Origin: a virus
Length of the DNA stretch: 64,000 nt
IMG/VR virus record: IMGVR_UViG_3300020437_000005
Span: 18,121-82,120 of that record
Direction: 5' to 3' (one strand)
The translations under genes were made by a program, and so were the position numbers. Shown here one piece after another: positions 21,869 through 32,896 of the stretch. Below the pieces are notes generated by a model that made no database searches, had not been told where the DNA came from, and saw nothing but the letters and a program-made list of their open reading frames with translations. Position 1 is the stretch's first letter, and each line of letters opens with the position of its first letter.

Positions 21869-22091
21869 TGCAACCATCTCTTGGGATCAACATCTCAAAA
21901 GAGGAAACGTGTGGAGATGTGAATTAGAACTTTCCATGCAAGACACACCAGGAGATGAACCGTACATATACACTGTGGAGGTTTATGTAGTGTCACCCAC
22001 ACAAGCACTTGCACAGTATATTGTGACTACAATGTATCCAGAATTTGAATCCTTCTTGATCGATGATGAACCTTGTCGAACTACCCCATGA
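21858..22091 (+). CDS. Hypothetical protein
   Basis: Tiles with neighbours. Confidence 0.6.
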   Translation: MKPDATISWDQHLKRGNVWRCELELSMQDTPGDEPYIYTVEVYVVSPTQALAQYIVTTMYPEFESFLIDDEPCRTTP

Positions 22092-22386
22092 TTTCCCCCA
22101 TCAACCCCCAAAAGGATATAGTTATGAAGCAACCAATTTCAAAACGAATGTGGTTGCTATTTGGTTACGGGATCATCGCAAGTATTCTTACACTTCTGAT
22201 GATGTTAGGACTATTTGGGGATTCGTCAAGACAAAACGAGGAAGGAAGGGAAGCATTACGACGACTTATCATGCCCCCATCAACTCAAATAAAGTAGGAG
22301 ATGTGGTAGACATTAACAATACTCGTAACTACACTGCGATGCAACTCAATCTCAATCCGTTAGAAAGTGTTATCTACAATGTATAA
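22063..22386 (+). CDS. Hypothetical protein (ELPHDFPHQPPKGYSY...YTAMQLNLNPLE)
   Basis: Tiles with neighbours; normal phage amino-acid composition. Confidence 0.65.
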   Translation: MMNLVELPHDFPHQPPKGYSYEATNFKTNVVAIWLRDHRKYSYTSDDVRTIWGFVKTKRGRKGSITTTYHAPINSNKVGDVVDINNTRNYTAMQLNLNPLESVIYNV

Positions 22387-22627
22387 ACCAGCCCTAGATG
22401 ATTACGTCATTTGGAAAGGAAACAATGTTGAAGGTTGGGTTTACTATATTGATAGTGATGATGAATATCTCACTATTGAGATAGCAGTCACAGATAAACT
22501 TCCACATCAACTTGATGCTGGAACATATCATAGAAAAAATCATGTATTAATTGTCTGCCAAGGTTATTATTGGCATGAGTTAGAATTCATCAAATCAAGA
22601 TCACACACCAAATCATTTGAGGACTAA
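22379..22627 (+). CDS. Hypothetical protein (SH3-like pattern P.LDDYV.W...EGWVY)
   Basis: ATG 22379 within ORF 22367..22627. Confidence 0.6.
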   Translation: MYKPALDDYVIWKGNNVEGWVYYIDSDDEYLTIEIAVTDKLPHQLDAGTYHRKNHVLIVCQGYYWHELEFIKSRSHTKSFED

Positions 22628-22629
22628 TT

Positions 22630-22857
22630 ATGTCACATCGTCGAGAGTCAAAACAGCAGCGTCGTGCTAATACTATGGAGAAACGTCGTAAGATGGATCA
22701 AGTAGCATCACAAATGATTCAAGAACGTATCGAACGTCGTCTTGCAATTATTGAGGACATCAAACAAAAGATTGCAATGATTGAAGAACAAGAATCTGCT
22801 CCAACAGTTGATGCTACCGAAGAAGAGGTTCCAGTAAGTGAAGTTGAGGTTGTATAA
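22630..22857 (+). CDS. Hypothetical protein, basic N-half and acidic C-half
   Basis: GAGG RBS. Confidence 0.6.
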   Translation: MSHRRESKQQRRANTMEKRRKMDQVASQMIQERIERRLAIIEDIKQKIAMIEEQESAPTVDATEEEVPVSEVEVV

Positions 22858-22869
22858 TCTGATTGAATA

Positions 22870-22903
22870 AAAGTTACTCACCTCCTGATTGTCTTATTAC
22901 TGT
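22870..22903 (+). repeat. Intergenic 34-bp element, copy 1
   Basis: AAAGTTACTCACCTCCTGATTGTCTTATTACTGT. Confidence 0.92.
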
Positions 22904-22916
22904 AATCACACATCAC

Positions 22917-23054
22917 ATGAATTCTTATCTGACCGAACAACAAGTTGAAGAACTGGTAAACTTTGACCACATTGAAAAAGATCTTGCTGATCTTATCGAA
23001 GATGAGGAAAAGTTTGACATCAAAGACTATCTCAACTCCAACATTGACTACTAA
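22917..23054 (+). CDS. 45-aa acidic mini-protein (MNSYLTEQQVEELV...)
   Basis: First ATG after element copy 1. Confidence 0.6.
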   Translation: MNSYLTEQQVEELVNFDHIEKDLADLIEDEEKFDIKDYLNSNIDY

Positions 23055-23055
23055 A

Positions 23056-23277
23056 ATGAATTTTCCTACCGAAACTGTCAACGTGTTACCACATCTGAAT
23101 GAACTGAAAGAAACTTGGCGTCGTCAAGACTTTCGATTCACAAAAGATCAACAACTTCAATATGATATGCTACTGCAAGCACGTCGTGAACGAGTTAGTT
23201 TCTTTTATGAAGCAGATCGTGTGTTCAAAGGTCCACGTATTGTAAAGGAGAAGGTTGAACAACAAGAAGAGGAGTGA
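23056..23277 (+). CDS. Hypothetical protein (MNFPTETVNVLPHL...)
   Basis: ATG 1 nt after the previous stop. Confidence 0.65.
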   Translation: MNFPTETVNVLPHLNELKETWRRQDFRFTKDQQLQYDMLLQARRERVSFFYEADRVFKGPRIVKEKVEQQEEE

Positions 23278-23283
23278 TATAAT
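23255..23283 (+). promoter_or_regulatory. sigma70-type promoter for the candidate ncRNA
   Basis: TTGAAC-17 nt-TATAAT with TGn extension. Confidence 0.65.
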
Positions 23284-23289
23284 ATAAAC

Positions 23290-23410
23290 ACCGGGGTTTC
23301 CACTACTCTGACCTAGAAGCAGAGACCATGAAGTGGTGTAAAAGAAGAACTTACGTTGATGCAACACCCACTCCAATCTCCTACTATTCTAAATAGTAGG
23401 AGATTTTTTT
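23290..23410 (+). ncRNA. Candidate ~120-nt structured small RNA
   Basis: Lies between a sigma70 promoter and a terminator; several nested pairings; only a 22-codon ORF inside. Confidence 0.45.
23375..23410 (+). terminator. Perfect 14-bp hairpin with T tract, containing a late promoter (CTAAATA 23389-23395)
   Basis: AATCTCCTACTATT-CTA-AATAGTAGGAGATT then TTTTT. Confidence 0.75.
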
Positions 23411-23419
23411 GTAGACAGA

Positions 23420-24067
23420 ATGAAGACGTTCGTGCAGTTTATGACTGAAGTATATGACAAGGATGTCATGGGTTCTTCACAAATTCGTAAAACTGGTGGC
23501 GAAACTATTGGTAAAGATCGTAAACAACCAGCATCAATGACTCGCAGAATGAAGGCAGTTGGCGGTGGTAAGATGGAACCTGTTAAATCACCAGCAAGAC
23601 GTAAAGATGCTGGACAACAGAAACCAAAATCACAAACACAACAACAACCAACAAAAGAAAGAGGCAGTGCCGAAGTTAAACAATCATATGCGGATAAGGT
23701 AAAGGCAGAGAGAAAGAAAGCAGCACAAGCAAGAGCGGCAGCGAGAAAGTCTGGTGGTGAGGTGAAGAAAGACACCACATCATCAAAAGAAAAAGAGTCT
23801 GCAGCAACAAAGTTATTGTCGAAGAAGTCAACCACAGTCAAGAAAGAACCATCGAGAACTAATCGTAAATGGAAACATGAGAGCGGTGGTGGTATGACAA
23901 GGAAGGAAAGAGATTCAGCAAGAAACAAAGAAAAGGGTGCTGCACTGAAAGCAAAGAAGGCAGAATTGATCAAGGGATTTACAGATACTCATGGAAGAGC
24001 ACCGAAGGGAGCAGAGAGAACTAGACTGCTGGGATTAGCACATAAGGCAGCAAAATCTGGATCATAA
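23420..24067 (+). CDS. Highly basic protein with T4 internal-protein-like capsid targeting N-terminus
   Basis: MKTFVQFMTE resembles the T4 IPII/IPIII CTS MKTYQEFIAE; K/R-rich; late promoter upstream. Confidence 0.7.
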   Translation: MKTFVQFMTEVYDKDVMGSSQIRKTGGETIGKDRKQPASMTRRMKAVGGGKMEPVKSPARRKDAGQQKPKSQTQQQPTKERGSAEVKQSYADKVKAERKKAAQARAAARKSGGEVKKDTTSSKEKESAATKLLSKKSTTVKKEPSRTNRKWKHESGGGMTRKERDSARNKEKGAALKAKKAELIKGFTDTHGRAPKGAERTRLLGLAHKAAKSGS

Positions 24068-24100
24068 AAGTTACTCACCTCTTGATCGTCTTAGTTGTAC
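24067..24100 (+). repeat. Intergenic element, copy 2
   Basis: AAAGTTACTCACCTCTTGATCGTCTTAGTTGTAC; overlaps the last base of the upstream stop. Confidence 0.92.
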
Positions 24101-24118
24101 GAACATCCTGAGAGGGTC

Positions 24119-24147
24119 TTGTAAGGCGCTCTAAGGTGTGTTATACT
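24119..24147 (+). promoter_or_regulatory. sigma70-type promoter upstream of the helicase
   Basis: TTGTAA-17 nt-TATACT with TGn extension. Confidence 0.6.
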
Positions 24148-24173
24148 GTCCACAGGTATTCATCCCCTATTTC

Positions 24174-25367
24174 GTGACTGTTACCCTTCGACCGCATCAG
24201 CAACGTGTTCTGGACCGTCTTGCAGCATATGATAAGGGTCAAGTCATTGTCCCCACAGGTGGTGGTAAAACCATCTGCATGATTCAGGATACTATCAATC
24301 AACAGAACAACAGTCAGTCTGGTATTACCACTGTTGTTGTTGCTCCTCGTATTCTTCTTGCTGAACAACTGTGCAGTGAGTTTATGGAACTTGTTGATGG
24401 TTCTTACACTCACATCATGCACGTTCATAGTGGCGAGACACATCACTTCAGTACAACTAATCCAGAAAAGATTGCACTGTTTGCCAACTGTGCTCGTACT
24501 GCTGGTGAGAACCTGATTATCTTCACCACATATAATTCTCTTGATCGTATTCGTCAGGCAGATATTGAAGTCAACGACATATACTTTGACGAGGCACACA
24601 ACAGTGTCAAGCGTAACTTCTTCCCTGCAACTGAACACTTCAGCAATGAATCTGATCGTTGTTACTTCTTCACTGCGACACCAAAGCACAGTCTGACTGT
24701 ATCTAAACCTGGCATGAATGATGGTTCTGTCTATGGTCAGGTGCTGGTCAATGTTCCTGCTCCTGAGTTGGTTGAGGGTGGATACATTCTTCCTCCCAAA
24801 GTTGTAGTCAAGCAGTTGCCTATGATCAAAGGTCGTAAGGTCGTATTTGCTGATGACTGTGACAATCTATTGGAGACGATTGATGACAATAATATCAGCA
24901 AGACTCTGATCTGTGCTCGTACAACTCAACAGATCATCAACCTTATCTCTCAGTCACAGTTCTGTACTGAACTCGCTCAACGCGGTTATTCTTGGATGAC
25001 AATTACATCCAAGACTGGTGCAATCGTTGATGGTGAGAAGGTTGACCGTGAAAAGTTCTTTGATACACTGAACTCTTGGGGTCGTGATCCTGATAAGAAG
25101 TTTGTCTGCATCCATCATAGTATCCTGTCTGAGGGTATCAATGTCAATGGGTTGGAGGCAGTTGTGTTTATGCGCAACATGGACTACATTGGTATTAGTC
25201 AGTCAATCGGTCGTGTGATACGTCTGGGAGGCGATCAGAAGACGTTTGGACTGGTTTGTGTACCAACTTACGATGCTGTTGGTATTTCCACCGCTCGCAA
25301 GGTTCAGGCAGTTGTTGATGTTGTGTTCAATCAAGGTCAACCTGCTATCTCTGAGATTCGCCGCTAA
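24174..25367 (+). CDS. Superfamily 2 DEAH helicase/ATPase (ResIII-like)
   Basis: Q-motif LRPHQ, Walker A PTGGGKT, DEAH, TAT, LSEGINV, QSIGRVIR. Probable GTG start at 24174, downstream of the promoter. Confidence 0.88.
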   Translation: MTVTLRPHQQRVLDRLAAYDKGQVIVPTGGGKTICMIQDTINQQNNSQSGITTVVVAPRILLAEQLCSEFMELVDGSYTHIMHVHSGETHHFSTTNPEKIALFANCARTAGENLIIFTTYNSLDRIRQADIEVNDIYFDEAHNSVKRNFFPATEHFSNESDRCYFFTATPKHSLTVSKPGMNDGSVYGQVLVNVPAPELVEGGYILPPKVVVKQLPMIKGRKVVFADDCDNLLETIDDNNISKTLICARTTQQIINLISQSQFCTELAQRGYSWMTITSKTGAIVDGEKVDREKFFDTLNSWGRDPDKKFVCIHHSILSEGINVNGLEAVVFMRNMDYIGISQSIGRVIRLGGDQKTFGLVCVPTYDAVGISTARKVQAVVDVVFNQGQPAISEIRR

Positions 25368-25369
25368 TT

Positions 25370-25403
25370 AAAGTTACTCACCTCTTGATTGTATCAATAG
25401 TGT
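25370..25403 (+). repeat. Intergenic element, copy 3
   Basis: AAAGTTACTCACCTCTTGATTGTATCAATAGTGT. Confidence 0.92.
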
Positions 25404-25433
25404 GAGGCACACATCTCACAAAGTTTTTTTTTT
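25401..25433 (+). terminator. Possible attenuator: hairpin and T10 immediately before ATG 25439
   Basis: TGTGAG-GCACACAT-CTCACA-AAG-T10. Confidence 0.45.
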
Positions 25434-25438
25434 CCTTT

Positions 25439-26044
25439 ATGTCTAAATCAATCATCACAATGCAAGGTGCGATTGATCGCATGAATAAGATCAAAGCATC
25501 AAGTTCAAAAAAGATTGAAGTGTATGCAAAGCGTTGCTACATTGATTTCATGAATCCTGAGATTATCAGTTGGTGGAACGATGAGAGCAAAGACACAAAT
25601 GTTGGTCGCGCTATCACTCGTCCTTTCTATGATCTGGTTCACTCCTGTTCTATTCCAACTGGACTGATTACAGAGTCTGCATTTAAGTCTGAAAAGAAAA
25701 CCAAAGATCACTGCTTCCGCCCACAATTTGTCTATCGGTTTATGTTAGACAATCACGAACAATTTGAAGACTTTTCTGTCTTTCGTGAGTGGTTTGTTAT
25801 GTGCTGTTCAACTATTCTCGTCACTCCAAACGAAAATGATCGTTTGAGTAGTGAAGGAACCAAGAATCATGGTGGCGAATATGTTATCATGAGTCCTACA
25901 GATAAACAGTATGTTCGTGCAAATCTTGACCTCTTCACTCATAGCAATGAGCGTAGTTGGGCAAAGCGTAGTCTGACTCCAGCATCGAATGTTATCAATG
26001 CTCCCAGCGCACTTCTGGAGTATGAAAAGGTCTTCATCTCTTGA
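25439..26044 (+). CDS. Hypothetical protein, possible HNH/His-Me finger nuclease
   Basis: TKDHCFRP ... ILVTPNENDRL resembles the (D/E)Hxx P...(L/V)TxxEN beta-beta-alpha-metal pattern. Confidence 0.6.
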   Translation: MSKSIITMQGAIDRMNKIKASSSKKIEVYAKRCYIDFMNPEIISWWNDESKDTNVGRAITRPFYDLVHSCSIPTGLITESAFKSEKKTKDHCFRPQFVYRFMLDNHEQFEDFSVFREWFVMCCSTILVTPNENDRLSSEGTKNHGGEYVIMSPTDKQYVRANLDLFTHSNERSWAKRSLTPASNVINAPSALLEYEKVFIS

Positions 26045-26049
26045 CTCTA

Positions 26050-26083
26050 AATGTTACTCACCTCTTAATCGTATTAGTAGTAT
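26050..26083 (+). repeat. Intergenic element, copy 4
   Basis: AATGTTACTCACCTCTTAATCGTATTAGTAGTAT; position 33 is the A of ATG 26082. Confidence 0.9.
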
Positions 26084-26981
26084 GAAGAACACTCATCTAC
26101 AACATCCAGAGGACGCCATTCTCACTGGTGATCTCTCTGTTCTCGATTGGTTCGCTGCACCAGACAGTCACATCAGCACGAAAATGGATGGTGCTCCTGC
26201 TATTGTCTGGGGCACTAATCCTGCAACTGGTAACAAGTTTGTGGGAACAAAATCTGTCTTCAACAAAGTCAAAATCAAAATCAATGAAACGCATACTGAC
26301 ATTGATCGGAATCATTCTGGGTCTGTTGCTGACATACTACACCATTGCCTTGATTACCTTCCTGATGTCGGTGGGATTATTCAAGGTGATTTTATTGGGT
26401 TTGGTGGTAGTGATACTTTTTGCCCCAATACGATTACTTACACGTTCCCTGAGGTAATTCGAGAGAACATCATCATTGCTCCTCACACATATTACACTGC
26501 TGATAAAGATCTGCGTGATGCTGTTGCTCATCCCTTAAAGTTCAGAATCACTGATACGATGTATTGTAAGATCGTGCAACCTGAGGTCAAGTTGCATCCC
26601 TACCGTGAGGATTTGTATGATATGAGTTTGTTTGCCAAGCAAATGTCCACACTATGTGAGTTTGTGGATGACAAGCAAGCAACAAAAATCAAAAAATCCA
26701 TCAACGACTGCATCCGTGATGGTTATGAGGTGGACGAGAATGAAATTGCACAAAAAAACGATTGTGACATCAATCTCATTCGATTGTGGAAGTTGGTTGC
26801 AACTATGAAGGACGATCTCTTCTGGTATATCACCGAAGACGATCTGATTGACTGTAAGATTGGTGATGAAGAGTCTATGCACGAAGGTTATGTTATCAGC
26901 AACCAATATGGTGTGTTCAAAGTTGTTGACCGACCTACATTTTCTCGTGCAAACTTCACCATTCAGAAAAGTTGGTCCTGA
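26082..26981 (+). CDS. DUF6267-like phage protein with KxDG motif (ligase/nucleotidyltransferase-like)
   Basis: MKNTHLQHPED...STKMDGAPAIVWG...QGDF...HEGYV...KVVDR.TFSRANF. Confidence 0.72.
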   Translation: MKNTHLQHPEDAILTGDLSVLDWFAAPDSHISTKMDGAPAIVWGTNPATGNKFVGTKSVFNKVKIKINETHTDIDRNHSGSVADILHHCLDYLPDVGGIIQGDFIGFGGSDTFCPNTITYTFPEVIRENIIIAPHTYYTADKDLRDAVAHPLKFRITDTMYCKIVQPEVKLHPYREDLYDMSLFAKQMSTLCEFVDDKQATKIKKSINDCIRDGYEVDENEIAQKNDCDINLIRLWKLVATMKDDLFWYITEDDLIDCKIGDEESMHEGYVISNQYGVFKVVDRPTFSRANFTIQKSWS

Positions 26982-26982
26982 G

Positions 26983-27016
26983 AAAGTTACTCACCTTTCG
27001 ATTGTACCAGTAGTGT
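26983..27016 (+). repeat. Intergenic element, copy 5
   Basis: AAAGTTACTCACCTTTCGATTGTACCAGTAGTGT. Confidence 0.92.
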
Positions 27017-27033
27017 AAGAACGGAGGAAACTG

Positions 27034-27366
27034 ATGCTATTTGTATCAGGAAAATCACAACACACAAAACTCACATTCAAGGTCTACGATTTCTTCCGTG
27101 AGTTGTATGATGTCAAGTCAGATGTTGAGGTGTTTCACACTGATCTGACTGATGACAATGCCTTCGGTTTTACCGAGGAGAATGGTGATGAACAATTCAT
27201 TCAGATTCACAATGATCTGAGTGAGAAAGATTTTACCATCACATTGCTGCACGAACTTGTGCATGTGATGCAGAACGAAAATGGTATCACTGATGATAAG
27301 ATACGAGAAGAAGAGGCATATATGTTTGAGGACATTCTTTACAATCAGTACCTGCAATCTGTCTGA
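27034..27366 (+). CDS. Small HExxH zinc metallopeptidase-like protein
   Basis: TLLHELVHVMQ ... REEEAY; GGAGG RBS. Confidence 0.75.
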   Translation: MLFVSGKSQHTKLTFKVYDFFRELYDVKSDVEVFHTDLTDDNAFGFTEENGDEQFIQIHNDLSEKDFTITLLHELVHVMQNENGITDDKIREEEAYMFEDILYNQYLQSV

Positions 27367-27370
27367 CCCC

Positions 27371-27404
27371 AAAGTTACTCACCTCTTGATCGTACCAGTA
27401 GTGT
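27371..27404 (+). repeat. Intergenic element, copy 6
   Basis: AAAGTTACTCACCTCTTGATCGTACCAGTAGTGT. Confidence 0.93.
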
Positions 27405-27417
27405 AAGCACTCAACCA

Positions 27418-27756
27418 ATGCAAGTTACTCAAACCAAACCCCAATTCCTGACCGAAGCACTCATCGAAGTGCTCAACAATCAGTGGAAAGTCGATGCGAT
27501 CGAATCCGGTCATTCTGTTTATACTCAACTTGAGTATGAAGTTGGTCGCAAGTACATCAAAGTTTGGTCATATCTTGTTAGTGATGGTGAGAAAATGAGA
27601 GGTCGTTCTTGCTGGATGTTCGTTGACAAGAACACTGGCGAATGTTACAAACCAGCATCATACAAAGCACCTGCTAAGTATGTCCGCTATCTGATCACTC
27701 AGTTAGCAGATAATCCTCACATTTGTGATGCCTATGGTTCGTTCTTGTATCTCTGA
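27418..27756 (+). CDS. Phage hypothetical protein (GRKYIKV...FVDKNTG..YKPASYKAPAK family)
   Basis: Recognisable phage early-protein motif. Confidence 0.75.
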   Translation: MQVTQTKPQFLTEALIEVLNNQWKVDAIESGHSVYTQLEYEVGRKYIKVWSYLVSDGEKMRGRSCWMFVDKNTGECYKPASYKAPAKYVRYLITQLADNPHICDAYGSFLYL

Positions 27757-27758
27757 TT

Positions 27759-28019
27759 ATGTTCTCTGACACCAATCGTCAACTCCGCAAACTTTCTATC
27801 TACAAACCCATGCAATTCCAAGTCACACAAATTGAGTTTGATTTCACTGACGATGTGTTTCCTGATGAAGCACTGCCAGTAGAAGAACAAGAACTTATTG
27901 TTGCAGAAACTTGTAATACTATCTGGGAGGCATGTGATGAGGATGATCTCATCGAGGAGATCACATCTGCATCAGGTTGGTGCATCAAATCCGTTGATTA
28001 TGTTCACGTTCTTAACTGA
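27759..28019 (+). CDS. Acidic hypothetical protein
   Basis: WEA.DEDDLIEEIT...GWCIKS; true start may be the internal ATG (MQFQVT). Confidence 0.6.
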   Translation: MFSDTNRQLRKLSIYKPMQFQVTQIEFDFTDDVFPDEALPVEEQELIVAETCNTIWEACDEDDLIEEITSASGWCIKSVDYVHVLN

Positions 28020-28024
28020 AACTC

Positions 28025-28192
28025 ATGATTACTTCCAAAGCACAAATGCTCCGCATTATGAAACAATGCGATGGAGCAGACACTCTCACTCGTGAACAAA
28101 AGTTTCAAGTTTTCTGCAATGTTTGCGATAACATGCTCAAATCTGGTAAAATGTCCAAAGCAACACACAAACGATTCACGGAGATCTGGTGA
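28025..28192 (+). CDS. 55-aa hypothetical protein (MITSKAQMLRIMKQC...)
   Basis: Read manually; TGATG-coupled to the next gene. Confidence 0.6.
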   Translation: MITSKAQMLRIMKQCDGADTLTREQKFQVFCNVCDNMLKSGKMSKATHKRFTEIW

Positions 28193-28401
28193 TGACTAAA
28201 GACGTTACAAACTCACCAAAAGATTGGGAGGATTTCTGGTACTCACCCGAGAAATATGGTTCTTGGGAGTATTACAACTCCGAGAGTGAGGGACGTGACG
28301 TTCCTGAGATTGATCCTGAAATCTTACGCTATGTCGATTATGTTTTGGGCAATTCTCCTTATCCACCATCATTTAAGAGAAACTCAAAACTCTCAGAATG
28401 A
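28192..28401 (+). CDS. Hypothetical protein
   Basis: ORF track; coupled start. Confidence 0.55.
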   Translation: MTKDVTNSPKDWEDFWYSPEKYGSWEYYNSESEGRDVPEIDPEILRYVDYVLGNSPYPPSFKRNSKLSE

Positions 28402-28410
28402 CAGGTTTTC

Positions 28411-28444
28411 AAAGTTACTCACCTCTTGATTGTCCTATTAGTGT
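28411..28444 (+). repeat. Intergenic element, copy 7
   Basis: AAAGTTACTCACCTCTTGATTGTCCTATTAGTGT. Confidence 0.92.
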
Positions 28445-28476
28445 AAGCACCACACCAAACCAATTCTTTTCTCATC

Positions 28477-28683
28477 ATGACCAAGTTTCGTGAGTTTGCA
28501 ACAGAAGCAATGTATTTTTGTGCTTGTTTCGGTACACTCTCTCTTGTGACTTTGTTCTGCACAGTCAACATGAATACGAGTTCCTCTATCATGAATCCTG
28601 TTGATGTTGAAACTGTATCAAATCCTTCTGATACTTCACCTGCTCGTGTTGACTATCTGACCAACATTCAAGAGGGTAACTGA
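28477..28683 (+). CDS. Small membrane protein
   Basis: Hydrophobic AMYFCACFGTLSLVTLFCTV. Confidence 0.6.
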   Translation: MTKFREFATEAMYFCACFGTLSLVTLFCTVNMNTSSSIMNPVDVETVSNPSDTSPARVDYLTNIQEGN

Positions 28684-28860
28684 ATGAAACCCTATCCGCT
28701 TGGAATTGACAACCCCATTCTGATTAAGCAGGTGTGGGGTTCTACTGACTGGGCATTGTATTGGAGAAAAGATCACATTAAGATCGCCACATTTTCTAAT
28801 CAATTCACTGCCTACGACATGCGCCGTTCTATTCTTCGTGCTCTTGGTTACGATGCTTGA
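28684..28860 (+). CDS. 58-aa hypothetical protein (MKPYPLGIDNPILIKQVWGS...)
   Basis: Read manually; ATG directly after the previous stop. Confidence 0.6.
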   Translation: MKPYPLGIDNPILIKQVWGSTDWALYWRKDHIKIATFSNQFTAYDMRRSILRALGYDA

Positions 28861-29017
28861 TCTCATTCTTGCCTACGAATCTGGTGAACTTGACAATGAC
28901 CAGATTGTTGAATTGTTCCAACAGATCTATGACAACAAAGCATACCTTTGGTTGCAAGGTCATTACGATCGCACACTTGCTCATCTAATTGACTCCGGTC
29001 TCATTCACATTGATTGA
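28853..29017 (+). CDS. 54-aa hypothetical protein (MLDLILAYESGELD...WLQGHYDR)
   Basis: Read manually; 8-nt overlap with the previous gene. Confidence 0.6.
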   Translation: MLDLILAYESGELDNDQIVELFQQIYDNKAYLWLQGHYDRTLAHLIDSGLIHID

Positions 29018-29026
29018 CACAAACTC

Positions 29027-29215
29027 ATGAACTACGATGTTGACGAACGCCAAACCTCCATTGATAACATGGAGGACACATTATTTGAAAAGATGAAGTT
29101 TGCCTTTATTCGTGAGAATGTGGGTGATGCTGAAGCGATCAAGAATGAGTGGGTTGTTGATGAAGACGACGAACCGGATAATTTTCTCTTTGTTCCCAAT
29201 CTTACACTAGACTGA
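29027..29215 (+). CDS. Acidic hypothetical protein
   Basis: ORF track; TGATG coupling to the next gene. Confidence 0.6.
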   Translation: MNYDVDERQTSIDNMEDTLFEKMKFAFIRENVGDAEAIKNEWVVDEDDEPDNFLFVPNLTLD

Positions 29216-29409
29216 TGACACAACTCGACTTTGATCGTTCGATGATGGAACTTAAACTGCGTAAACAGACTCTACTGGATGAGATCGCGCAGATCAATGC
29301 TTCTATAGAGTTTCTTCAAGAACAGAAGAATAACATCGTAGGTGAACAACAGGAGAGGACAGAAGAGATCTATAATGATATACTGGGAGATGAGTATTTC
29401 TCAGAATAA
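29215..29409 (+). CDS. Coiled-coil hypothetical protein
   Basis: ORF track; heptad pattern. Confidence 0.6.
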   Translation: MTQLDFDRSMMELKLRKQTLLDEIAQINASIEFLQEQKNNIVGEQQERTEEIYNDILGDEYFSE

Positions 29410-29472
29410 TAACATAACTCTCCGAGAGTTTCCGAGATTCGAGCGACGCGAGCGCCGATTTTTTTCATTCTC

Positions 29473-29506
29473 AAAGTTACTCACCTTCTGATTGTACCAG
29501 TTGTAT
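29473..29506 (+). repeat. Intergenic element, copy 8
   Basis: AAAGTTACTCACCTTCTGATTGTACCAGTTGTAT; position 33 is the A of ATG 29505. Confidence 0.92.
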
Positions 29507-29732
29507 GAGAATCACTTCCACCATGGTCCCTGTCCCTGACGACATCCGCGCCGCTGCCGTTCTTGAACAGATCAAAGATTGCAAGGTTGAAGATCCCTTT
29601 GGCAACCGATACAGCATTGTCGATGTTAAGTGCTTCAACGGTAAAGTGCGATCCATTGGTCTCAAAGGCGCTGATGGTGTTGTTATGTACGCCTCGAAGA
29701 ATGTCTTTCTTGAAATGACATCTATTGCTTAA
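29505..29732 (+). CDS. Hypothetical protein (possibly leaderless)
   Basis: ORF starts inside the element's 3' end. Confidence 0.6.
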   Translation: MRITSTMVPVPDDIRAAAVLEQIKDCKVEDPFGNRYSIVDVKCFNGKVRSIGLKGADGVVMYASKNVFLEMTSIA

Positions 29733-29735
29733 TTC

Positions 29736-29918
29736 ATGAAACTTCGTAAAATTCACATGAAAACGATTCTGATTGTGTTAGTTGGTGTGCTGGTTTGGAC
29801 GAACAACGATGCACGCACATTCACTGCAAAAGCACTCTATCGTGCTGCTGAGTTTGTATCACCCGAACCTGAATCTCGTTCGATCGGTGAAACAATCGAT
29901 GAAATCTTCTCTCGTTAA
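29736..29918 (+). CDS. Small membrane protein
   Basis: MKTILIVLVGVLVW hydrophobic segment. Confidence 0.6.
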   Translation: MKLRKIHMKTILIVLVGVLVWTNNDARTFTAKALYRAAEFVSPEPESRSIGETIDEIFSR

Positions 29919-29926
29919 TTGACATC

Positions 29927-30127
29927 ATGCAAGAAACTAAGTTCAATCTCTATGGCGAACATATCCGTCCTAATGGTCATCAACAGTGGGACATTCTGAG
30001 TTACATTGCTGAGACAAGAGAGGATGCGATTGCTGCATGTAGGAAGAACAATCCTTACTTTCACATTATCACAATTCAGGTAGATGATACATCACCTGAA
30101 GTCGTGAGGTTGCAATCTCTGATTTGA
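29927..30127 (+). CDS. Hypothetical protein
   Basis: ORF track; stop overlaps element copy 9. Confidence 0.6.
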   Translation: MQETKFNLYGEHIRPNGHQQWDILSYIAETREDAIAACRKNNPYFHIITIQVDDTSPEVVRLQSLI

Positions 30128-30160
30128 AAGTTACTCACCTCCTGATCGTACCAGTAGTGT
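30127..30160 (+). repeat. Intergenic element, copy 9
   Basis: AAAGTTACTCACCTCCTGATCGTACCAGTAGTGT. Confidence 0.93.
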
Positions 30161-30172
30161 AAGCACTCAACC

Positions 30173-30334
30173 ATGACAGACCAAACCTACTCCGAAATCC
30201 TCAAAGTTTGGAACGACGAAACTCCTGACGATTTTGCAATCTTCAGTGAACTCTACTACCAAATGTTCGGTGGAGAGTTTGACATTCCTTACATCACACA
30301 GTCTACCACTTCTGCATTTTTCCCCTACGATTGA
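30173..30334 (+). CDS. 53-aa hypothetical protein (MTDQTYSEILKVWNDETPDDF...)
   Basis: Read manually; first ATG after copy 9. Confidence 0.6.
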   Translation: MTDQTYSEILKVWNDETPDDFAIFSELYYQMFGGEFDIPYITQSTTSAFFPYD

Positions 30335-30352
30335 TCAACAGGAGTTAGTTTG

Positions 30353-30526
30353 ATGACTTATTCTGAACTTTTGGTGCAACTGCTTCAACTTAATACAGAA
30401 CAGTTGAGGCAAGACGTTACAGTCTATGATTCTGACACTGATGAACACTATCCTATGAAGGAGTTTGTGTATGCAACTGATGCACAAAATGTTCTAGACA
30501 CTGACCACCCTATTCTTTCTTTCTGA
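30353..30526 (+). CDS. 57-aa hypothetical protein (MTYSELLVQLLQLNTEQLRQDVTVYD...)
   Basis: AGGAG RBS; read manually. Confidence 0.65.
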   Translation: MTYSELLVQLLQLNTEQLRQDVTVYDSDTDEHYPMKEFVYATDAQNVLDTDHPILSF

Positions 30527-30529
30527 ACC

Positions 30530-30940
30530 ATGTCTACCAACGCAAGAATCGCAATTCAACTGTCAGACAAACCCGGTTACTATGTCTCTGTTTATCATCA
30601 CTGGGATGGTTATCCGCAGTGGTTGGGTAAGACTCTCGGACAACACTTTGACTCTCGTAAGTTAGCATCCGATCTGATTGATGGTGGAGACATGTCATGC
30701 TGCTGGTCAGATACAGACTGGAACATGAAGAAACTCCCAACCAATCGTCCTCTCTATTATTCTGAGCGTGGTGAGGATTGCCCTCCTCAACTTGCAACCA
30801 CTACAGACGATTTGTTCGAGCAATGTGAGAACTGTGGTGCAGAGTATGTTTACATCTACACTCCAGATCACGGTTGGGTATCACACAGTGTCTATGATTA
30901 TACTTCTGGCAAATTTCAATCAGCAACTCTCTCTAACTAA
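30530..30940 (+). CDS. Phage hypothetical protein with YxHxDGYP motif
   Basis: MSTNARI...VYHHWDGYP...AEYVYIY. Confidence 0.75.
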   Translation: MSTNARIAIQLSDKPGYYVSVYHHWDGYPQWLGKTLGQHFDSRKLASDLIDGGDMSCCWSDTDWNMKKLPTNRPLYYSERGEDCPPQLATTTDDLFEQCENCGAEYVYIYTPDHGWVSHSVYDYTSGKFQSATLSN

Positions 30941-30949
30941 CATTCAATC

Positions 30950-31171
30950 ATGACAACTTCCACTTTTCTCACTAACATGAACGACGAGCAACTTGACAAA
31001 CTCAAAGACAACTATGCCTACCTGATTGTGGATGGTATGGATATGGATTCTCTCATTACTTTCGCTGTCGAAACTGTTGCTCACAATTTAGAAACCTGGA
31101 CAGAGGAAGAAATCAAGGAAGAGATTCTCGATCATTATGGTGAAGAAACTCTGAATGATCTTCTATCCTAA
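30950..31171 (+). CDS. Acidic hypothetical protein
   Basis: ORF track; IVDGMDMDSL. Confidence 0.65.
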   Translation: MTTSTFLTNMNDEQLDKLKDNYAYLIVDGMDMDSLITFAVETVAHNLETWTEEEIKEEILDHYGEETLNDLLS

Positions 31172-31273
31172 AATCACACAAATTTAAGTATAATCACTCA
31201 CAAAAATGATTCAAAATCAATTAAAAATGGTTTAATAAATATACTTTCGTTTTCTATCTCTCTTGTTACTTGA

Positions 31274-31315
31274 CAGTTACTCCGTGGTTGTTTGACAGTA
31301 TCTGCGGAGTAATTG
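31274..31315 (+). other. 14-bp inverted repeat/hairpin in a non-coding gap
   Basis: CAGTTACTCCGTGG ... CTGCGGAGTAATTG; all three mismatches are G-U on the + strand. Confidence 0.7.
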
Positions 31316-31354
31316 CACTGATAAATGTACGAACTTATAGTGATCTTGGACCTC

Positions 31355-31383
31355 ATTCTATCACCACTCCGCGAAAATGTCAA
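31355..31383 (-). promoter_or_regulatory. Antisense sigma70-type promoter
   Basis: Minus strand TTGACA-17 nt-TAGAAT with TGn extension. Confidence 0.7.
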
Positions 31384-31456
31384 GTCCCCCGCAATCAGAA
31401 ATCCCACACAAAACACTTCGTAATATAAGGAGGACTCATAAATAGTCTGCGGTAGA

Positions 31457-31485
31457 TTGACAGATTCTCTCTGACGATCTATAAT
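31457..31485 (+). promoter_or_regulatory. Perfect sigma70 promoter
   Basis: TTGACA-17 nt-TATAAT. Confidence 0.85.
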
Positions 31486-31514
31486 AACAAAGTAACACTC
31501 CCACCCTTCCAACC

Positions 31515-31688
31515 ATGCCTGCTATCTATCACCAAGCACAGAAGAGTAAGTATCGCATCACCCTGGAAATCGAAGCAATGAGTGACTTCGACCCGCATAA
31601 TATCAACTGGGATCGATTGTTTAAGTTGGAAGGTTCGGAGAATTGTGATGCTTATATAGAGGACCTGAGTACACCTGACCGTTGGTAA
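31515..31688 (+). CDS. 57-aa hypothetical protein (MPAIYHQAQKSKYRITLEIE...EDLSTPDRW)
   Basis: Read manually; directly downstream of the promoter. Confidence 0.65.
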   Translation: MPAIYHQAQKSKYRITLEIEAMSDFDPHNINWDRLFKLEGSENCDAYIEDLSTPDRW

Positions 31689-31701
31689 TCGCAGTCGCTT
31701 T

Positions 31702-31735
31702 AAAGTTACTCACCTCTTGATCGTACCAGTGGTGT
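31702..31735 (+). repeat. Intergenic element, copy 10
   Basis: AAAGTTACTCACCTCTTGATCGTACCAGTGGTGT. Confidence 0.93.
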
Positions 31736-31760
31736 AAGAAACCAACAGAAACAAACAAAC

Positions 31761-31934
31761 ATGCTCACCCGATCTGATCTTCTCACCGTTCGCGACTACT
31801 TCTCCGGAGATGAGTGGGACCTGATTGATGCTGCTCTCAGTGAGTATCAGGACCATTTTGACACTGATGAAGATGCAATCGTGTTCAACACATTGCAATC
31901 GAAACTCGCAGGATTGTTCCGTATTGTAGACTGA
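31761..31934 (+). CDS. 57-aa hypothetical protein (MLTRSDLLTVRDYFSGDEWDLIDAALSEYQDH...)
   Basis: Read manually; first ATG after copy 10. Confidence 0.65.
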   Translation: MLTRSDLLTVRDYFSGDEWDLIDAALSEYQDHFDTDEDAIVFNTLQSKLAGLFRIVD

Positions 31935-31976
31935 GAATCGGTACTCTAAGTAACACTCAACTATCACTCTCACATC

Positions 31977-32291
31977 ATGCGTAAGATCGAAACTCTGATG
32001 AACAAAGCAATCGCGGACGGCAAAGATTGGTCGCTCGATAACACTAGAGTCGAGTCCTACGGTGACATCGCCCACGTCTATCTTTACGGCAAACTTATCT
32101 CAAGAATCGGCGAAGGTTGGATACAATTATTCGACGGAGGTAAGCAATCGAAGACCACCAAATCTCGCCTGAATGCTGTACTCGAAGCGAATGGATTGCC
32201 GGGTGAACGTGTCTTTCAACGCAATCGTCAGTGGTTCGTTAACTACAACGGACATCCAATTCCTTTCTTCTCAGGTATGCGTATGAATTGA
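31977..32291 (+). CDS. Phage hypothetical protein (MRKIE...TTKSRLNA family)
   Basis: Recognisable phage early-protein motif. Confidence 0.75.
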   Translation: MRKIETLMNKAIADGKDWSLDNTRVESYGDIAHVYLYGKLISRIGEGWIQLFDGGKQSKTTKSRLNAVLEANGLPGERVFQRNRQWFVNYNGHPIPFFSGMRMN

Positions 32292-32375
32292 TAAAGTATC
32301 GGTAACCTGGGCACGTTAGCGTTGCATCGGTAAGTCCCAGGTCTTCATTCTTCACTAACACTTTTCTCTTTTATT

Positions 32376-32510
32376 ATGTCTCGCTCAACTGCACTCGGTC
32401 TTCTCAACATCGGCGCTGACGGTAATGAAATCCTTGCCATTCTCGATGTTATCGCTGAGATCGAATCCGAGAAGGTTATCGACGAAATCGCAGATCTCCT
32501 GTTTAATTGA
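32376..32510 (+). CDS. 44-aa acidic mini-protein (MSRSTALGLLNIGADGNEILAILDVI...)
   Basis: Read manually. Confidence 0.55.
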   Translation: MSRSTALGLLNIGADGNEILAILDVIAEIESEKVIDEIADLLFN

Positions 32511-32514
32511 TACG

Positions 32515-32703
32515 ATGATCACCAACGTCGCTACAGCGTCCCGTCTAGATCTTGAGATCGCTGACACTCGGGGACAGATCAAGTACACACGTTTGAAACC
32601 ACAATCACCTCGTCGTTCGTTGTTAGTCTTGACACAAACTAAGGGTCTCCGAACTAACACGAATCGAGGTAAGATTAACGACAAACACGCTACATCGATC
32701 TGA
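32515..32703 (+). CDS. 62-aa basic hypothetical protein (MITNVATASRLDLEIADTRGQIKYTRL...)
   Basis: Internal ATG of ORF 32425..32703 removes the overlap with 32376..32510. Confidence 0.55.
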   Translation: MITNVATASRLDLEIADTRGQIKYTRLKPQSPRRSLLVLTQTKGLRTNTNRGKINDKHATSI

Positions 32704-32719
32704 CACGATTGCAGAGGGG

Positions 32720-32748
32720 TTGACAACACTCAATCCCTCTGATATACT
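32720..32748 (+). promoter_or_regulatory. sigma70 promoter embedded in an inverted repeat
   Basis: TTGACA-17 nt-TATACT; AGAGGGGTTGA/TCAATCCCTCT arms at 32713-32740. Confidence 0.7.
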
Positions 32749-32896
32749 GACAGTAGGTATCGCAGTGTTGGGCGTTTATCGTCGTTCGTTGATGCGTCGC
32801 GTGTATATAAAAAAACCCAACTTCCCTAACCTACAACGGACCGAATTCGAGAGGTATATATAATTCAACTTTTGTTTTGATGCGGAGAAAAAAATT

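What the first reader, a model, noticed from the sequence alone, without database searches (positions are those of the whole stretch)
22870..31735. Ten-copy non-sigma70 element divides the early region into gene cassettes
Seen: ten same-orientation intergenic copies at 22870, 24067, 25370, 26050, 26983, 27371, 28411, 29473, 30127 and 31702, consensus AAAGTTACTCACCT-YYY-GAT-Y-GT-MYY-A-N-T-N-GT-R-T. The first 14 nt differ by one base in one copy, and there are no indels. Nine of ten copies begin within 13 nt of the upstream stop (two overlap it). Units are 388-1575 nt and carry 1-5 unrelated ORFs. In copies 4 and 8 the start ATG sits exactly at position 33, a purine in all copies. That argues against TAGTGT (29-34) being a sigma70 -10 and suggests +1 at position 33 with leaderless mRNAs. 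The element has no TTGACA, although ordinary sigma70 and ATAAATA promoters occur nearby. Inference: a third promoter class read by a phage-specific activator or alternative sigma, and/or a recombination handle for shuffling cassettes. The closest known concepts are the PeSL elements of T4-type coliphages and early-gene motifs of T4-like cyanophages, but this element has no conserved stem-loop.
Basis: partly seen in the sequence, partly recalled or inferred. Interest (0 to 1): 0.88.

Follow-up and report, generated by a model that had tools for sequence, protein, structure and literature searches.

The report
Cyanophage repeated early-gene promoter cassette
A marine T4-like cyanophage puts the same 40-base signal, most likely a phage-specific gene-start (promoter) signal that often contains the start codon itself, in front of ten small gene groups, and related phages have reshuffled gene blocks at these signals.

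Summary
Ten same-strand copies sit at the stated coordinates (0.5 expected by chance), and there are none elsewhere in the 82-kb contig.

The element is not private. The exact 14-mer occurs in at least 118 IMG/VR stretches, 74 of them with element-like flanks. It also occurs in the isolate Synechococcus phage SynMITS9220M01. It is absent from Syn9, P-TIM40, S-PM2, P-SSM2, P-SSM4, P-HM2, S-RSM4 and Sf-CH5, and from 185,579 prokaryote species genomes beyond chance.

Position 33 is a real start codon:
- 83 of 90 ATG-33 cases are in phase with the downstream gene, against 40 of 154 otherwise.
- In six sequences a strong terminator sits 7-18 nt before the element and ATG-33 is the only start. RNA must therefore begin inside the element, at or before position 33.

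Relatives show cassette loss and reordering at the elements.

Best reading (0.55): a composite phage promoter giving leaderless or near-leaderless mRNAs, which also acts as a recombination seam. The reader protein is unknown and no transcript 5' end was measured.

It is a new variant of a known kind: cyanophage early-gene elements and PeSL cassettes. Earlier scan notes describe similar elements on other cyanophage DNA.

The parts
22870..22909 (+). Element copy 1 (14-mer box, spacer, TACT-G33). First ATG of the downstream ORF is at position 48 (22917).
24067..24106 (+). Element copy 2. Its first base overlaps the stop of ORF 23420-24067. Downstream is the UvsW-type helicase; its start is uncertain (24138 or 24174, non-ATG).
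25370..25409 (+). Element copy 3. A hairpin at 25401-25420 followed by a T10 run begins at element position 32. Gene start is at 25439.
26050..26089 (+). Element copy 4 (box AATG..., one mismatch). ATG at position 33 (26082) starts the DUF6267 gene 26082-26981.
   Evidence: Pfam DUF6267, E 4.9e-84, the alignment begins at residue 3.
26983..27022 (+). Element copy 5. Downstream is an M78-like peptidase gene starting at 27034 (position 52).
27371..27410 (+). Element copy 6. It heads a four-ORF cassette starting at 27418 (position 48, DUF7717).
28411..28450 (+). Element copy 7. It heads a five-ORF cassette starting at 28477 (position 67).
29473..29512 (+). Element copy 8, the only copy far (63 nt) from the upstream stop. 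ATG at position 33 (29505), with a second in-frame ATG at position 51 (29523).
30127..30166 (+). Element copy 9. Its first base overlaps the stop of ORF 29927-30127. Gene start is at 30173 (position 47).
31702..31741 (+). Element copy 10. Gene start is at 31761 (position 60).

Best explanation
The element is a composite, phage-specific promoter cassette of one lineage of T4-like cyanophages (Kyanoviridae).

Anatomy, numbered from the first A of the 14-mer:
- A/T-rich positions at -14 to -10 and -3 to 0.
- A 14-nt upstream box, AAAGTTACTCACCT. Its most constant core is CTCACCT.
- A lineage-specific segment at positions 15-28. In most relatives it reads YNAAASTGKNC; in this phage it reads CTTGATYGTMYY.
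- An initiation block, TAGT-R33-T-R-A-G-C-A-C.

Inferred mechanism. Host RNA polymerase, probably redirected by an unidentified phage factor that reads the upstream box, starts RNA at or a few bases before position 33. About a third of the genes are then translated from an AUG at or next to the 5' end (leaderless or near-leaderless). The rest are translated from G-poor leaders without a Shine-Dalgarno sequence, 14-24 nt long.

Inferred second role. The roughly 40-bp copies are near-identical and co-oriented, so they also act as homologous-recombination seams at which cassettes are lost, gained and reordered.

Shown: the repeat, its spread among phages, use of ATG-33, the terminator-element-ATG33 layout, and cassette permutations.
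For: 1. Ten co-oriented intergenic copies, far above chance. All elements share one orientation in 120 of 120 loci examined.

2. Flush packing. In 169 of 190 elements with an upstream ORF, the stop lies within 13 nt of the element or overlaps it.

3. Start codons, 247 unique instances:
- 80 at position 33
- 110 at positions 47-57
- 10 at positions 35-46
- 5 earlier, 26 later, 16 with none

4. Frame. ATG-33 is in phase and open with the downstream gene in 83 of 90 cases, against 40 of 154 when position 33 is not ATG. GTG at position 33 is nearly absent (3, against 90 ATG, 85 GTA and 31 ATA).

5. The Pfam DUF6267 profile aligns from residue 3 of the protein that starts at ATG-33. GenBank annotators placed 4 of 9 SynMITS9220M01 CDS starts at position 33.

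6. Terminators. Of 281 unique elements, 8 are preceded at 7-18 nt by a terminator (dG -7.0 to -14.9, T6-7). All 8 are ATG-33 genes. Six have no other nearby start and carry three different terminator sequences. This was confirmed independently in L033: terminator at 8685-8710, element at 8724, ORF 8756-9658.

7. Leaders of the 120 non-ATG-33 genes are G-poor (G 0.11), and only 9 carry an SD-like 4-mer.

8. The full pattern is absent from prokaryote genomes beyond chance: 5 scattered hits, none cyanobacterial.

9. Syn9 and Sf-CH5 carry a different repeated element at the syntenic place. The window and SynMITS9220M01 lack that type. One RNA-library contig shows a homologue of the DUF7717 gene behind the Syn9-type leader (loose end at 27427).

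10. Seams. L112 and L023 lack cassettes 3-5, with the two alignments overlapping in one element copy. L048 has the order 2,6,4,9 and L055/L102 have 4,9. Upstream-neighbour conservation is lower at element junctions: 0.19 against 0.45 at 60-80% identity, 0.34 against 0.59 at 80-90%, and a per-family mean of 0.28 against 0.39, one-sided p 0.02.
Against: - No transcript 5' end was seen. The only RNA data were assembled contigs, and some of them cross elements 7 and 10, so read-through RNA or contaminating DNA exists.
- With +1 at position 33 there is no TANNNT hexamer at the usual -12 to -7. The block TATAGT/TAGT lies at -6 to -1, which fits no known bacterial sigma geometry.
- The geometry box (positions 4-10), 18-19 nt spacer, TAGTRT (29-34), C38-A39 would suit a sigma70-type enzyme starting near positions 39-41.
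- No phage RNA polymerase, MotA, AsiA or extra sigma was found. Three of these four searches had no positive control.
- The six terminator cases are orthologous loci (one gene family), so they amount to few independent events.
- Copy 3 carries a hairpin plus T10 from position 32. If RNA starts at position 33, that hairpin would lie in its own transcript.
- One cassette junction in L073 (6|5) has no element.
- The pair counts are not independent.
Confidence: 0.55

Rival explanations
1. An ordinary-geometry promoter for host RNA polymerase with a sigma70-family factor. The 14-mer fills the -35 region, like a T4 early -35 or a MotA-type box. TAGTRT (positions 29-34), or TATAGT (27-32), is the -10. 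RNA starts near A39-41. Genes that begin at ATG-33 are translated only from read-through RNA, and their start codon overlaps the promoter because the genome is compacted.
For: - TANNNT at positions 29-34 in 7 of 10 window copies, with T29 84%, A30 73% and T34 88% across relatives.
- C38-A39 is conserved, and the G-poor tract begins at about position 40.
- A/T positions upstream resemble an UP element.
- Stop codons also overlap the element's 5' edge in 80 of 190 cases, so compaction is real.
- 39 of 84 ATG-33 genes have a second in-frame ATG at positions 45-57.
- In copy 3 a start near position 39 would skip the 5' arm of the hairpin-T10, while upstream RNA would terminate there.
- RNA-library contigs cross elements 7 and 10.
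Against: - Six sequences place a strong terminator 7-18 nt before an element whose only start codon is ATG-33.
- 45 of 84 ATG-33 genes lack a second in-frame ATG at positions 45-57, and 33 of them have none within 20 codons. A start at position 39 would leave the adjacent gene untranslatable.
- In the window, 3 of 10 copies lack A at hexamer position 2.
- None of the ten elements passes the sigma70 consensus scan.
Confidence: 0.2
2. An RNA-level element within long early transcripts. It would be either a site where the polycistronic RNA is cut just before position 33, or a platform that lets ribosomes finishing the upstream gene re-start at AUG-33 or at the next AUG.
For: - The element abuts the upstream stop in 169 of 190 cases.
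- The distance to AUG-33 is fixed.
- There is no Shine-Dalgarno sequence.
- GTTACTCACC is antisense to a conserved 16S rRNA stretch, as printed in 16S probes.
- The element RNA is unstructured, with z scores of +1.2 and +1.6.
Against: - The terminator-element-ATG33 layout needs a new RNA start, not read-through.
- Alternative upstream boxes (AAAGTTAGGATCGT, TAACATGGGGGCCT) destroy the 16S complementarity yet keep the downstream half and ATG-33.
- Box variants at positions 6-7 break the complementarity as well.
- No Rfam family matches.
- No covarying stem was found.
Confidence: 0.1
3. Purely a recombination or mobility sequence, such as a selfish repeat or an attC-like cassette boundary, with no role in expression.
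For: Cassette loss and reordering occur at the elements, and neighbour conservation is lower there. Units are co-oriented.
Against: - Strict co-orientation with the genes.
- A fixed relation to start codons.
- Conservation of an initiation block that constrains the first codons of unrelated proteins.
- No inverted-repeat structure.
- One reordering junction lies outside any element.
Confidence: 0.05

Closest known systems
Early-gene regulatory element of T4-like cyanophages (Doron et al. 2016, ISME J 10:1437). The paper is not held and its content is recalled only. I read the Syn9/Sf-CH5 element myself from the genomes.
   Same: - It sits in the same genomic place: the small-gene region around the UvsW helicase, between the tail-fibre and baseplate genes.
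- It is repeated, co-oriented and directly upstream of small genes.
- The two types share short pieces: an AAASTGKCC-like box and TATAAG...TCAAA.
- The two types look mutually exclusive in the four genomes compared, and either type can precede homologous genes.
   Different: - The sequence differs. The Syn9 type has TGTGACAGT, about N8, ASCTGKMCAC, about N27, GTGTATTCTATAAGAGTCAAAGG, then an 17-19-nt leader with an SD-like AAAGG.
- The Syn9 type has no 14-mer and no start codon inside the element.
- Neither Syn9 nor P-TIM40, the two phages of that study, carries the present 14-mer.
PeSL / PmSL cassettes of T4-type phages (Arbiol 2010, PMC2839356, search listing only; Comeau 2014, PMC4122927, passages read).
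   Same: Repeated promoter-bearing units in hyperplastic regions, next to small ORFs that differ between relatives. They are seams of insertion, deletion and exchange.
   Different: - PeSLs carry near-consensus sigma70 hexamers (TTGACA-N17-TATAAT and variants) or a TGCTT Mot box, plus a defined stem-loop.
- This element has neither a consensus -35/-10 pair nor a conserved stem-loop.
- It often contains the start codon.
- PeSLs had not been reported at high density in a cyanophage (S-PM2, PMC4503421 passage).
T4 middle promoters (MotA box plus -10).
   Same: A two-part layout: a specific upstream box replaces the -35 and is followed by a short downstream block. Interchangeable upstream boxes on one core suggest box-specific readers.
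   Different: - The box sequence is unrelated to TGCTT.
- No MotA or AsiA family match was found in SynMITS9220M01 or the contig (no positive control).
- Cyanomyoviruses are reported to lack motA and asi (PMC2984593 passage).
Promoters of leaderless genes in bacteria and archaea (general knowledge, recalled).
   Same: The start codon sits at a fixed short distance from a conserved upstream motif. ATG is strongly preferred over GTG. There is no Shine-Dalgarno sequence.
   Different: In known bacterial cases a TANNNT box ends about 6-7 nt before the ATG. Here the TA-rich block abuts the ATG, and the strongly conserved part lies 19-32 nt upstream.

Membership tests
Sigma70 (group 1) promoter | A -35 hexamer like TTGACA, a 16-18 nt spacer and a TANNNT -10, at least 9 of 12 matches | tested here: not met
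   The consensus scan of 17000-36000 lists 61 sites, and none lies on an element. TANNNT alone is present at positions 29-34 in 7 of 10 copies.
Sigma70 (group 1) promoter | RNA start 5-9 nt downstream of the -10, upstream of the start codon it serves | tested here: not met
   ATG-33 lies inside the candidate -10. It is the used start in 83 of 90 cases and the only start behind a terminator in 6 sequences. No 5' end was measured.
PeSL cassette | Near-consensus early sigma70 promoter | tested here: not met
PeSL cassette | Conserved stem-loop joined to the promoter | tested here: not met
   Of 216 elements, 56 fold at dG -9 or below, with no common stem. Window copies 1 and 6 fold no better than shuffles. 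Only copy 3 has a hairpin (z -2.1).
PeSL cassette | Lies in a hyperplastic small-ORF region, co-oriented, at differences between related genomes | tested here: met
PeSL cassette | Excised mini-circles or recombinants formed at the repeats | not testable with these tools
   Needs outward PCR or long reads from infected cells.
T4 middle (MotA-dependent) promoter | TGCTT Mot box at about -30 | tested here: not met
   The box is AAAGTTACTCACCT.
T4 middle (MotA-dependent) promoter | motA and asiA genes in the phage | tested here: inconclusive
   No PF09114 or PF09010 match in SynMITS9220M01 or the contig, but the controls rang nowhere. A review passage says cyanomyoviruses lack them.
Syn9-type cyanophage early element | Boxes TGTGACAGT / CTGKMCAC, then TATTCTATAAGAGTCAAAGG leader | tested here: not met
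   The leader motif is absent from the + strand of the window and from the syntenic region of SynMITS9220M01. Only short pieces are shared.
Single-subunit (T7-like) RNA polymerase promoter | Phage encodes a T7-like RNA polymerase | tested here: inconclusive
   No PF00940 match in SynMITS9220M01 (complete genome) or the contig, but the control rang nowhere.
Known RNA family (Rfam 15) | Match to a covariance model | tested here: not met
   There are two sub-threshold matches elsewhere and none on an element.
Integron attC-type cassette boundary | Imperfect inverted repeat forming a folded bottom strand, plus an integrase | tested here: not met
   No inverted repeat within the element. An integrase was not searched for.

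The most novel reading that the evidence does not exclude
T4-like cyanophages of this lineage may run their early programme through an undescribed initiation system. In it, a shared core (AAASTG... TAGT|R) is combined with interchangeable 14-nt 'address' boxes, of which at least three sequence-unrelated kinds occur, sometimes mixed in one array. Unknown phage-encoded or virion-delivered factors would read these boxes. They would make host RNA polymerase start within about 5 nt of the AUG, outside any known sigma geometry, producing a largely leaderless early transcriptome. The address boxes would set timing classes and would co-evolve with their readers.
Probability: 0.25. Interest if true: 0.85.

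Novelty: new variant of a known kind. Interest (0 to 1): 0.62.

Why it matters
T4-like cyanophages kill a large share of the ocean's main photosynthetic bacteria, yet how they switch on their first genes is poorly understood. They lack the T4 proteins Alt, Mod, MotA and AsiA.

This element gives a sharply defined, testable handle. It is 40 bp long, it is present in a cultured phage-host pair (SynMITS9220M01 and Synechococcus MIT S9220), and it leads to two clear predictions:
- RNA 5' ends at positions 28-33.
- Proteins that start at the built-in AUG.

If confirmed, it would have three consequences:
- Leaderless early expression would be shown in a T4-type phage.
- There would be a route, by pull-down with the box, to the unknown factor that redirects cyanobacterial RNA polymerase.
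- Gene calling for hundreds of small cyanophage ORFs would improve.

It also extends the PeSL idea, that promoters act as recombination seams building hyperplastic regions, to marine cyanophages.

Tried and rejected
Transcript ends. The four RNA runs hold only assembled contigs at 5-7% of words. They cannot show starts. Parts without cover are not used as evidence.

Literature:
- Searches for the motif letters returned only primers and 16S probes among the listed rows. I saw 15 of 137 and 20 of 227 rows.
- 'cyanophage' + 'leaderless' gave 10 papers. The two I opened hold the word only in reference lists.
- The five listed papers on SynMITS9220M01 were seen as listing only.
- Doron 2016 is not held. 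Its main text and supplements may contain this motif, so I cannot claim that the motif is not in print.

Known-consensus comparisons. Sigma54, flagellar sigma28, ECF-type, NtcA, PhoB, HLR1 and LexA sites were compared from memory only. None fitted and none was tested with a tool.

Alternative -10 hexamers. A hexamer at positions 16-21 (NAAAST, start near position 28) fits most lineages. L033 even has TTGACA 17 nt upstream of it. It does not fit this window (TTGATY) or the CCAATTGACC lineage, so I left it open.

16S complementarity. I judged this probably chance, because alternative boxes and box variants break it.

Reader-factor hunt:
- Small genes conserved with the arrays and not found in Syn9 were listed. 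Pfam and PHROGs give no function for them.
- PDB profile searches give only non-significant hits: Gp34.65 at E 0.29 and uS17 at E 0.26-0.9.
- Co-occurrence is confounded by phylogeny, so I did not pursue it.

Syn9 motif discovery by k-mers failed at first. Reading the upstream regions directly worked.

Unusable outputs: (bad threshold and a bad index) gave unusable output and were redone. The regex missed L123.

Upstream of copy 8, the GC-rich tract plus T7 does not fold better than shuffles (z -0.65).

Full report
WHAT IS THERE

The window is bases 18121-82120 of an 82,120-nt IMG/VR contig. The contig belongs to a T4-like cyanomyophage. The region around the finding matches only Synechococcus and cyanophage records, at 72-78% identity over the UvsW helicase and neighbouring genes. 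All long ORFs lie on the + strand.

The pattern AAAGTTACTCACCT occurs ten times with at most 2 mismatches, at exactly the coordinates given, and always on the + strand. Nine copies are exact and one has a single mismatch. Chance expectation is 0.5, and 0 of 100 shuffles reach 10. The rest of the contig holds no further copy.

A weight matrix built from positions 15-40 alone finds the same ten sites at 27-38 bits. The next best site in the contig scores 12.8 bits.
- no indels
- a purine at position 33 in 10 of 10 copies
- ATG at position 33 in copies 4 and 8
- 9 of 10 copies within 13 nt of the upstream stop, two of them overlapping it
- spacings of 388-1575 nt

HOW WIDESPREAD IT IS

These give 260 unique instances. 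Of them, 224 have element-like flanks, and these lie in 74 of the 118 loci. The remaining loci are mostly single matches that look like chance. Arrays hold up to 14 copies, and in 120 of 120 loci examined all copies share one orientation.

One cultured phage carries the element. Synechococcus phage SynMITS9220M01 (MT408532) has nine copies between 40.4 and 50.0 kb of its 190-kb genome, in the syntenic small-gene region, plus a variant near 38.9 kb.

Eight other cyanomyophages show only background matches: Syn9, P-SSM4 and Sf-CH5, and P-TIM40, S-PM2, P-HM2, P-SSM2 and S-RSM4.

The pattern 14-mer + N14 + TAGT gives five scattered single hits in one genome each of 185,579 prokaryote species. None is cyanobacterial. 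By my own arithmetic about 17 hits would be expected by chance. The element therefore belongs to the phages and is not a class of host promoter.

ANATOMY ACROSS RELATIVES

The consensus over 285 unique instances has these parts:
- A/T positions at -14/-13 and -11/-10, and AATT at -3 to 0
- the 14-mer
- then C-c-A-A-A-g-T-G-t-c-c-y-w-r
- then T29-A-G-T32, R33, T34, R35, A36, g, C38, A39
- from about position 40, a G-poor tract rich in C and A

Positions 15-28 are specific to each lineage but uniform within a genome. This phage has CTTGATYGTMYY. Others have CCAAAGTGGACCTA, CCAAAGTGTCCTAG, CCAAACTGCCACAG or CCAATTGACCCCTA.

Searching with the downstream half alone finds 299 unique elements:
- 195 carry the canonical box.
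- Others vary at positions 1-4 and 6-7, so the most constant core is CTCACCT.
- Some carry unrelated upstream boxes on the same downstream half: AAAGTTAGGATCGT, TAACATGGGGGCCT and relatives.

These alternative boxes are not hairpins. In L028 they are interleaved with a canonical copy in one array. The element is therefore modular, with an exchangeable upstream box on a shared core.

The element is not structured. Two window copies fold no better than shuffles (z +1.6 and +1.2). No common stem appears among 216 elements, and no Rfam family matches.

POSITION 33 IS A REAL START CODON

Across 247 unique instances, the first ATG that opens at least 40 codons falls as follows:
- position 33 in 80
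- positions 47-57 in 110
- positions 35-46 in 10
- earlier in 5, later in 26, nowhere in 16

I defined the downstream gene independently of position 33. ATG-33 is then in phase and open with it in 83 of 90 cases. The figure is 40 of 154 when position 33 is not ATG, which is close to the one in three expected at random. Four of 248 instances were dropped because the gene was shorter than 40 codons.

The triplet at positions 33-35 is almost always ATG (90), GTA (85) or ATA (31). GTG is nearly absent (3).

The Pfam DUF6267 profile aligns from residue 3 of the window protein that starts at 26082, with E 4.9e-84. The same gene starts at ATG-33 in several relatives. GenBank annotators placed 4 of 9 SynMITS9220M01 starts at position 33.

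Of 84 ATG-33 genes, 39 have a second in-frame ATG at positions 45-57, and 22 of these are at position 48. The background methionine frequency is 1.5% per codon. Another 33 have no second ATG within 20 codons.

The leaders of the 120 other genes are G-poor (G 0.11), and only 9 hold an SD-like 4-mer.

WHERE RNA STARTS

There are two possible geometries.

(a) Sigma70-like. The box lies in the -35 region, TAGTRT at positions 29-34 is the -10, and RNA starts near A39-41.

(b) A start at or just before position 33.

Geometry (a) is attractive on spacing. However, it leaves ATG-33 genes dependent on read-through RNA.

The decisive comparison is. Of 281 unique elements, 8 are preceded at 7-18 nt by an intrinsic terminator (dG -7.0 to -14.9, T6-7). 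All 8 head ATG-33 genes. In 6 of them (L011, L033, L053, L087, L089, L121; three different terminator sequences; all the DUF6267 gene) ATG-33 is the only nearby start.

The consensus scanner confirms this for L033. It finds an 11-pair terminator at 8685-8710; the element is at 8724 and the 300-codon ORF starts at 8756. Only about 40 nt separate the T-run from the start codon, and the element fills all of them. That gene must therefore be transcribed from inside the element, with +1 at or before position 33.

Caveats:
- These six are orthologous loci and amount to few independent events.
- Terminators can leak.
- Copy 3 of the window carries a hairpin plus T10 from position 32. That layout reads more naturally with a start near position 39.
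- RNA-library contigs do cross elements 7 and 10, so read-through RNA or DNA carry-over exists.

I therefore put (b) at about 0.55 and (a) at about 0.2. The exact +1 (anywhere from position 28 to 33) is unmeasured.

WHO READS IT

This is unknown. With +1 at position 33, no TANNNT lies at -12 to -7, so the layout fits no bacterial sigma geometry that I know of (recalled knowledge).

Family searches over the complete SynMITS9220M01 genome and the contig gave:
- no T7-like RNA polymerase
- no MotA or AsiA
- one sigma region-2 match above the family cut-off, at 101.9 kb of SynMITS9220M01, which I take to be the late factor gp55 (inference), plus a weaker sub-threshold match at 102.6 kb

The searches had no positive control.

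Small genes that travel with the arrays and were not found in Syn9 are at window 17924, 21315, 22063 and 31515. Three of them (17924, 21315, 31515) lie behind canonical TTGACA-17-TA...T promoters. They have no recognisable function.

Three observations are what one would expect if the box co-evolves with a phage-encoded reader: the uniformity of the spacer within a genome, the exchangeable boxes, and the absence of the element from host genomes. This is an inference.

RELATION TO THE KNOWN CYANOPHAGE EARLY ELEMENT

Syn9 and Sf-CH5 carry a different repeated element at the syntenic place. It reads TGTGACAGT, about N8, A(A/G)(C/G)TGKMCAC, about N27, GTGTATTCTATAAGAGTCAAAGG, and then an 17-19-nt leader.

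The window and SynMITS9220M01 lack that type. In one RNA-library contig, a homologue of the window's DUF7717 gene follows the Syn9-type leader (loose end at 27427). The two types therefore look like alternative solutions to the same job. They share an AAASTGKCC-like box and TATAAG...TCAAA.

From memory, Doron et al. 2016 reported that a novel regulatory element controls early genes in Syn9 and P-TIM40, and that host-like promoters drive middle genes. I could not read that paper. If my recollection is right, the window's five near-perfect sigma70 promoters at 17869, 21266, 31457, 32720 and 33079 would be the middle class, and the element would be the early class. This too is an inference.

CASSETTE SEAMS

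Numbering the window's units 1-10, relatives show these orders:
- L112 and L023: 1,2,6. Units 3-5 are absent, and the two alignments overlap within a single element copy (L112 4681-4696).
- L048: 2,6,4,9.
- L073: 4,x,6,5,9. The 6|5 junction lies outside any element.
- L055 and L102: 4,9.
- SynMITS9220M01: no element between units 2 and 3.

Within arrays there are 753 junctions, 293 of them with an element. The upstream neighbour belongs to the same family less often at element junctions:

| Protein identity | With element | Without element |
|---|---|---|
| 30-60% | 0.08 | 0.27 |
| 60-80% | 0.19 | 0.45 |
| 80-90% | 0.34 | 0.59 |
| 90-97% | 0.59 | 0.75 |

The per-family means are 0.28 (27 families) and 0.39 (47 families), one-sided Mann-Whitney p 0.02. 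The pairs are not independent, and ORF calling was crude.

This is what recombination between co-oriented 40-bp repeats would give. It is also what selection for self-sufficient, promoter-headed units would give. The two cannot be separated here.

COMPARISON AND NOVELTY

The element works like a PeSL cassette, that is, a promoter that is also a shuffling seam (passages of PMC4122927). It fails two defining features: it has no consensus sigma70 hexamers and no conserved stem-loop. It works like the cyanophage early element of Syn9 but is a different sequence with a different layout, and it contains the start codon.

I found no paper naming this motif. The library lacks the key paper and supplements were closed, so I rate it a new variant of a known kind.

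Earlier notes of this scan describe the same sort of element on other cyanophage genomes, including one with a private box next to a shared AAAGTGT half and one with a built-in ATG. They agree. They are AI notes and not independent evidence.

Noticed in passing
window 31172-31514: A non-coding island of about 340 nt has divergent near-perfect sigma70 promoters: + strand TTGACA-17-TATAAT at 31457-31485 and - strand TTGACA-17-TAGAAT at 31383-31355. It also holds two partial copies of the box core (GTTACT, AGTTACTC) and an inverted GGAGTAAT at about 31265-31315.
   Followed up: partly
window 25401-25434: A hairpin (TGTGAG-8-CTCACA, dG -7.6, z -2.1) followed by T10 begins at position 32 of element copy 3. 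It is terminator-like and lies between a putative promoter and its gene. Similar hairpins starting at G33 occur in a few relatives.
   Followed up: partly
L150 (Syn9 NC_008296) 21540-21660; also L129 (Sf-CH5) 10355-14069: Syn9 and Sf-CH5 carry their own repeated element, ending in GTGTATTCTATAAGAGTCAAAGG. The annotated GTG start of Syn9 gp73 lies inside that element. An ATG about 30 nt downstream looks like the real start.
   Followed up: partly
window element positions 4-14 (all ten copies): GTTACTCACC is antisense to a conserved 16S rRNA stretch; the same letters stand in 16S probes printed in PMC4236526. On the opposite strand, CACCTCC reads as a perfect Shine-Dalgarno-like GGAGGTG. This is probably chance, because alternative boxes lack it.
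   Followed up: partly
L028 (- strand) 624-2601; L123; L083: Arrays mix the canonical box with unrelated upstream boxes (TAACATGGGGGCCT, AAAGTTAGGATCGT) on the same downstream half. These may be separate regulatory classes.
   Followed up: partly
window 1-64000: G+C falls in steps: about 0.46 at 1-10 kb (inside a giant ORF that spans 5,562 codons in the contig), about 0.40 at 10-34 kb, and about 0.33 at 34-64 kb (baseplate and giant structural ORFs).
   Followed up: no
window 17924-18118: This is the first small gene after the tail-fibre terminator (17716-17745) and a TTGACA-17-TACAAT promoter. It encodes a 65-aa basic protein (KPKSKKAKNRF motif) conserved in 12 array loci. Its profile hits PDB 'Gp34.65' only weakly (E 0.29, not significant).
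   Followed up: partly
L033 8685-8756 and orthologous loci L011, L053, L087, L089, L121: The DUF6267 gene is kept behind a strong terminator plus the element in several diverged phages. L033, L053 and L089 also have a perfect TTGACA 17 nt before CAAACT (element positions 16-21).
   Followed up: partly
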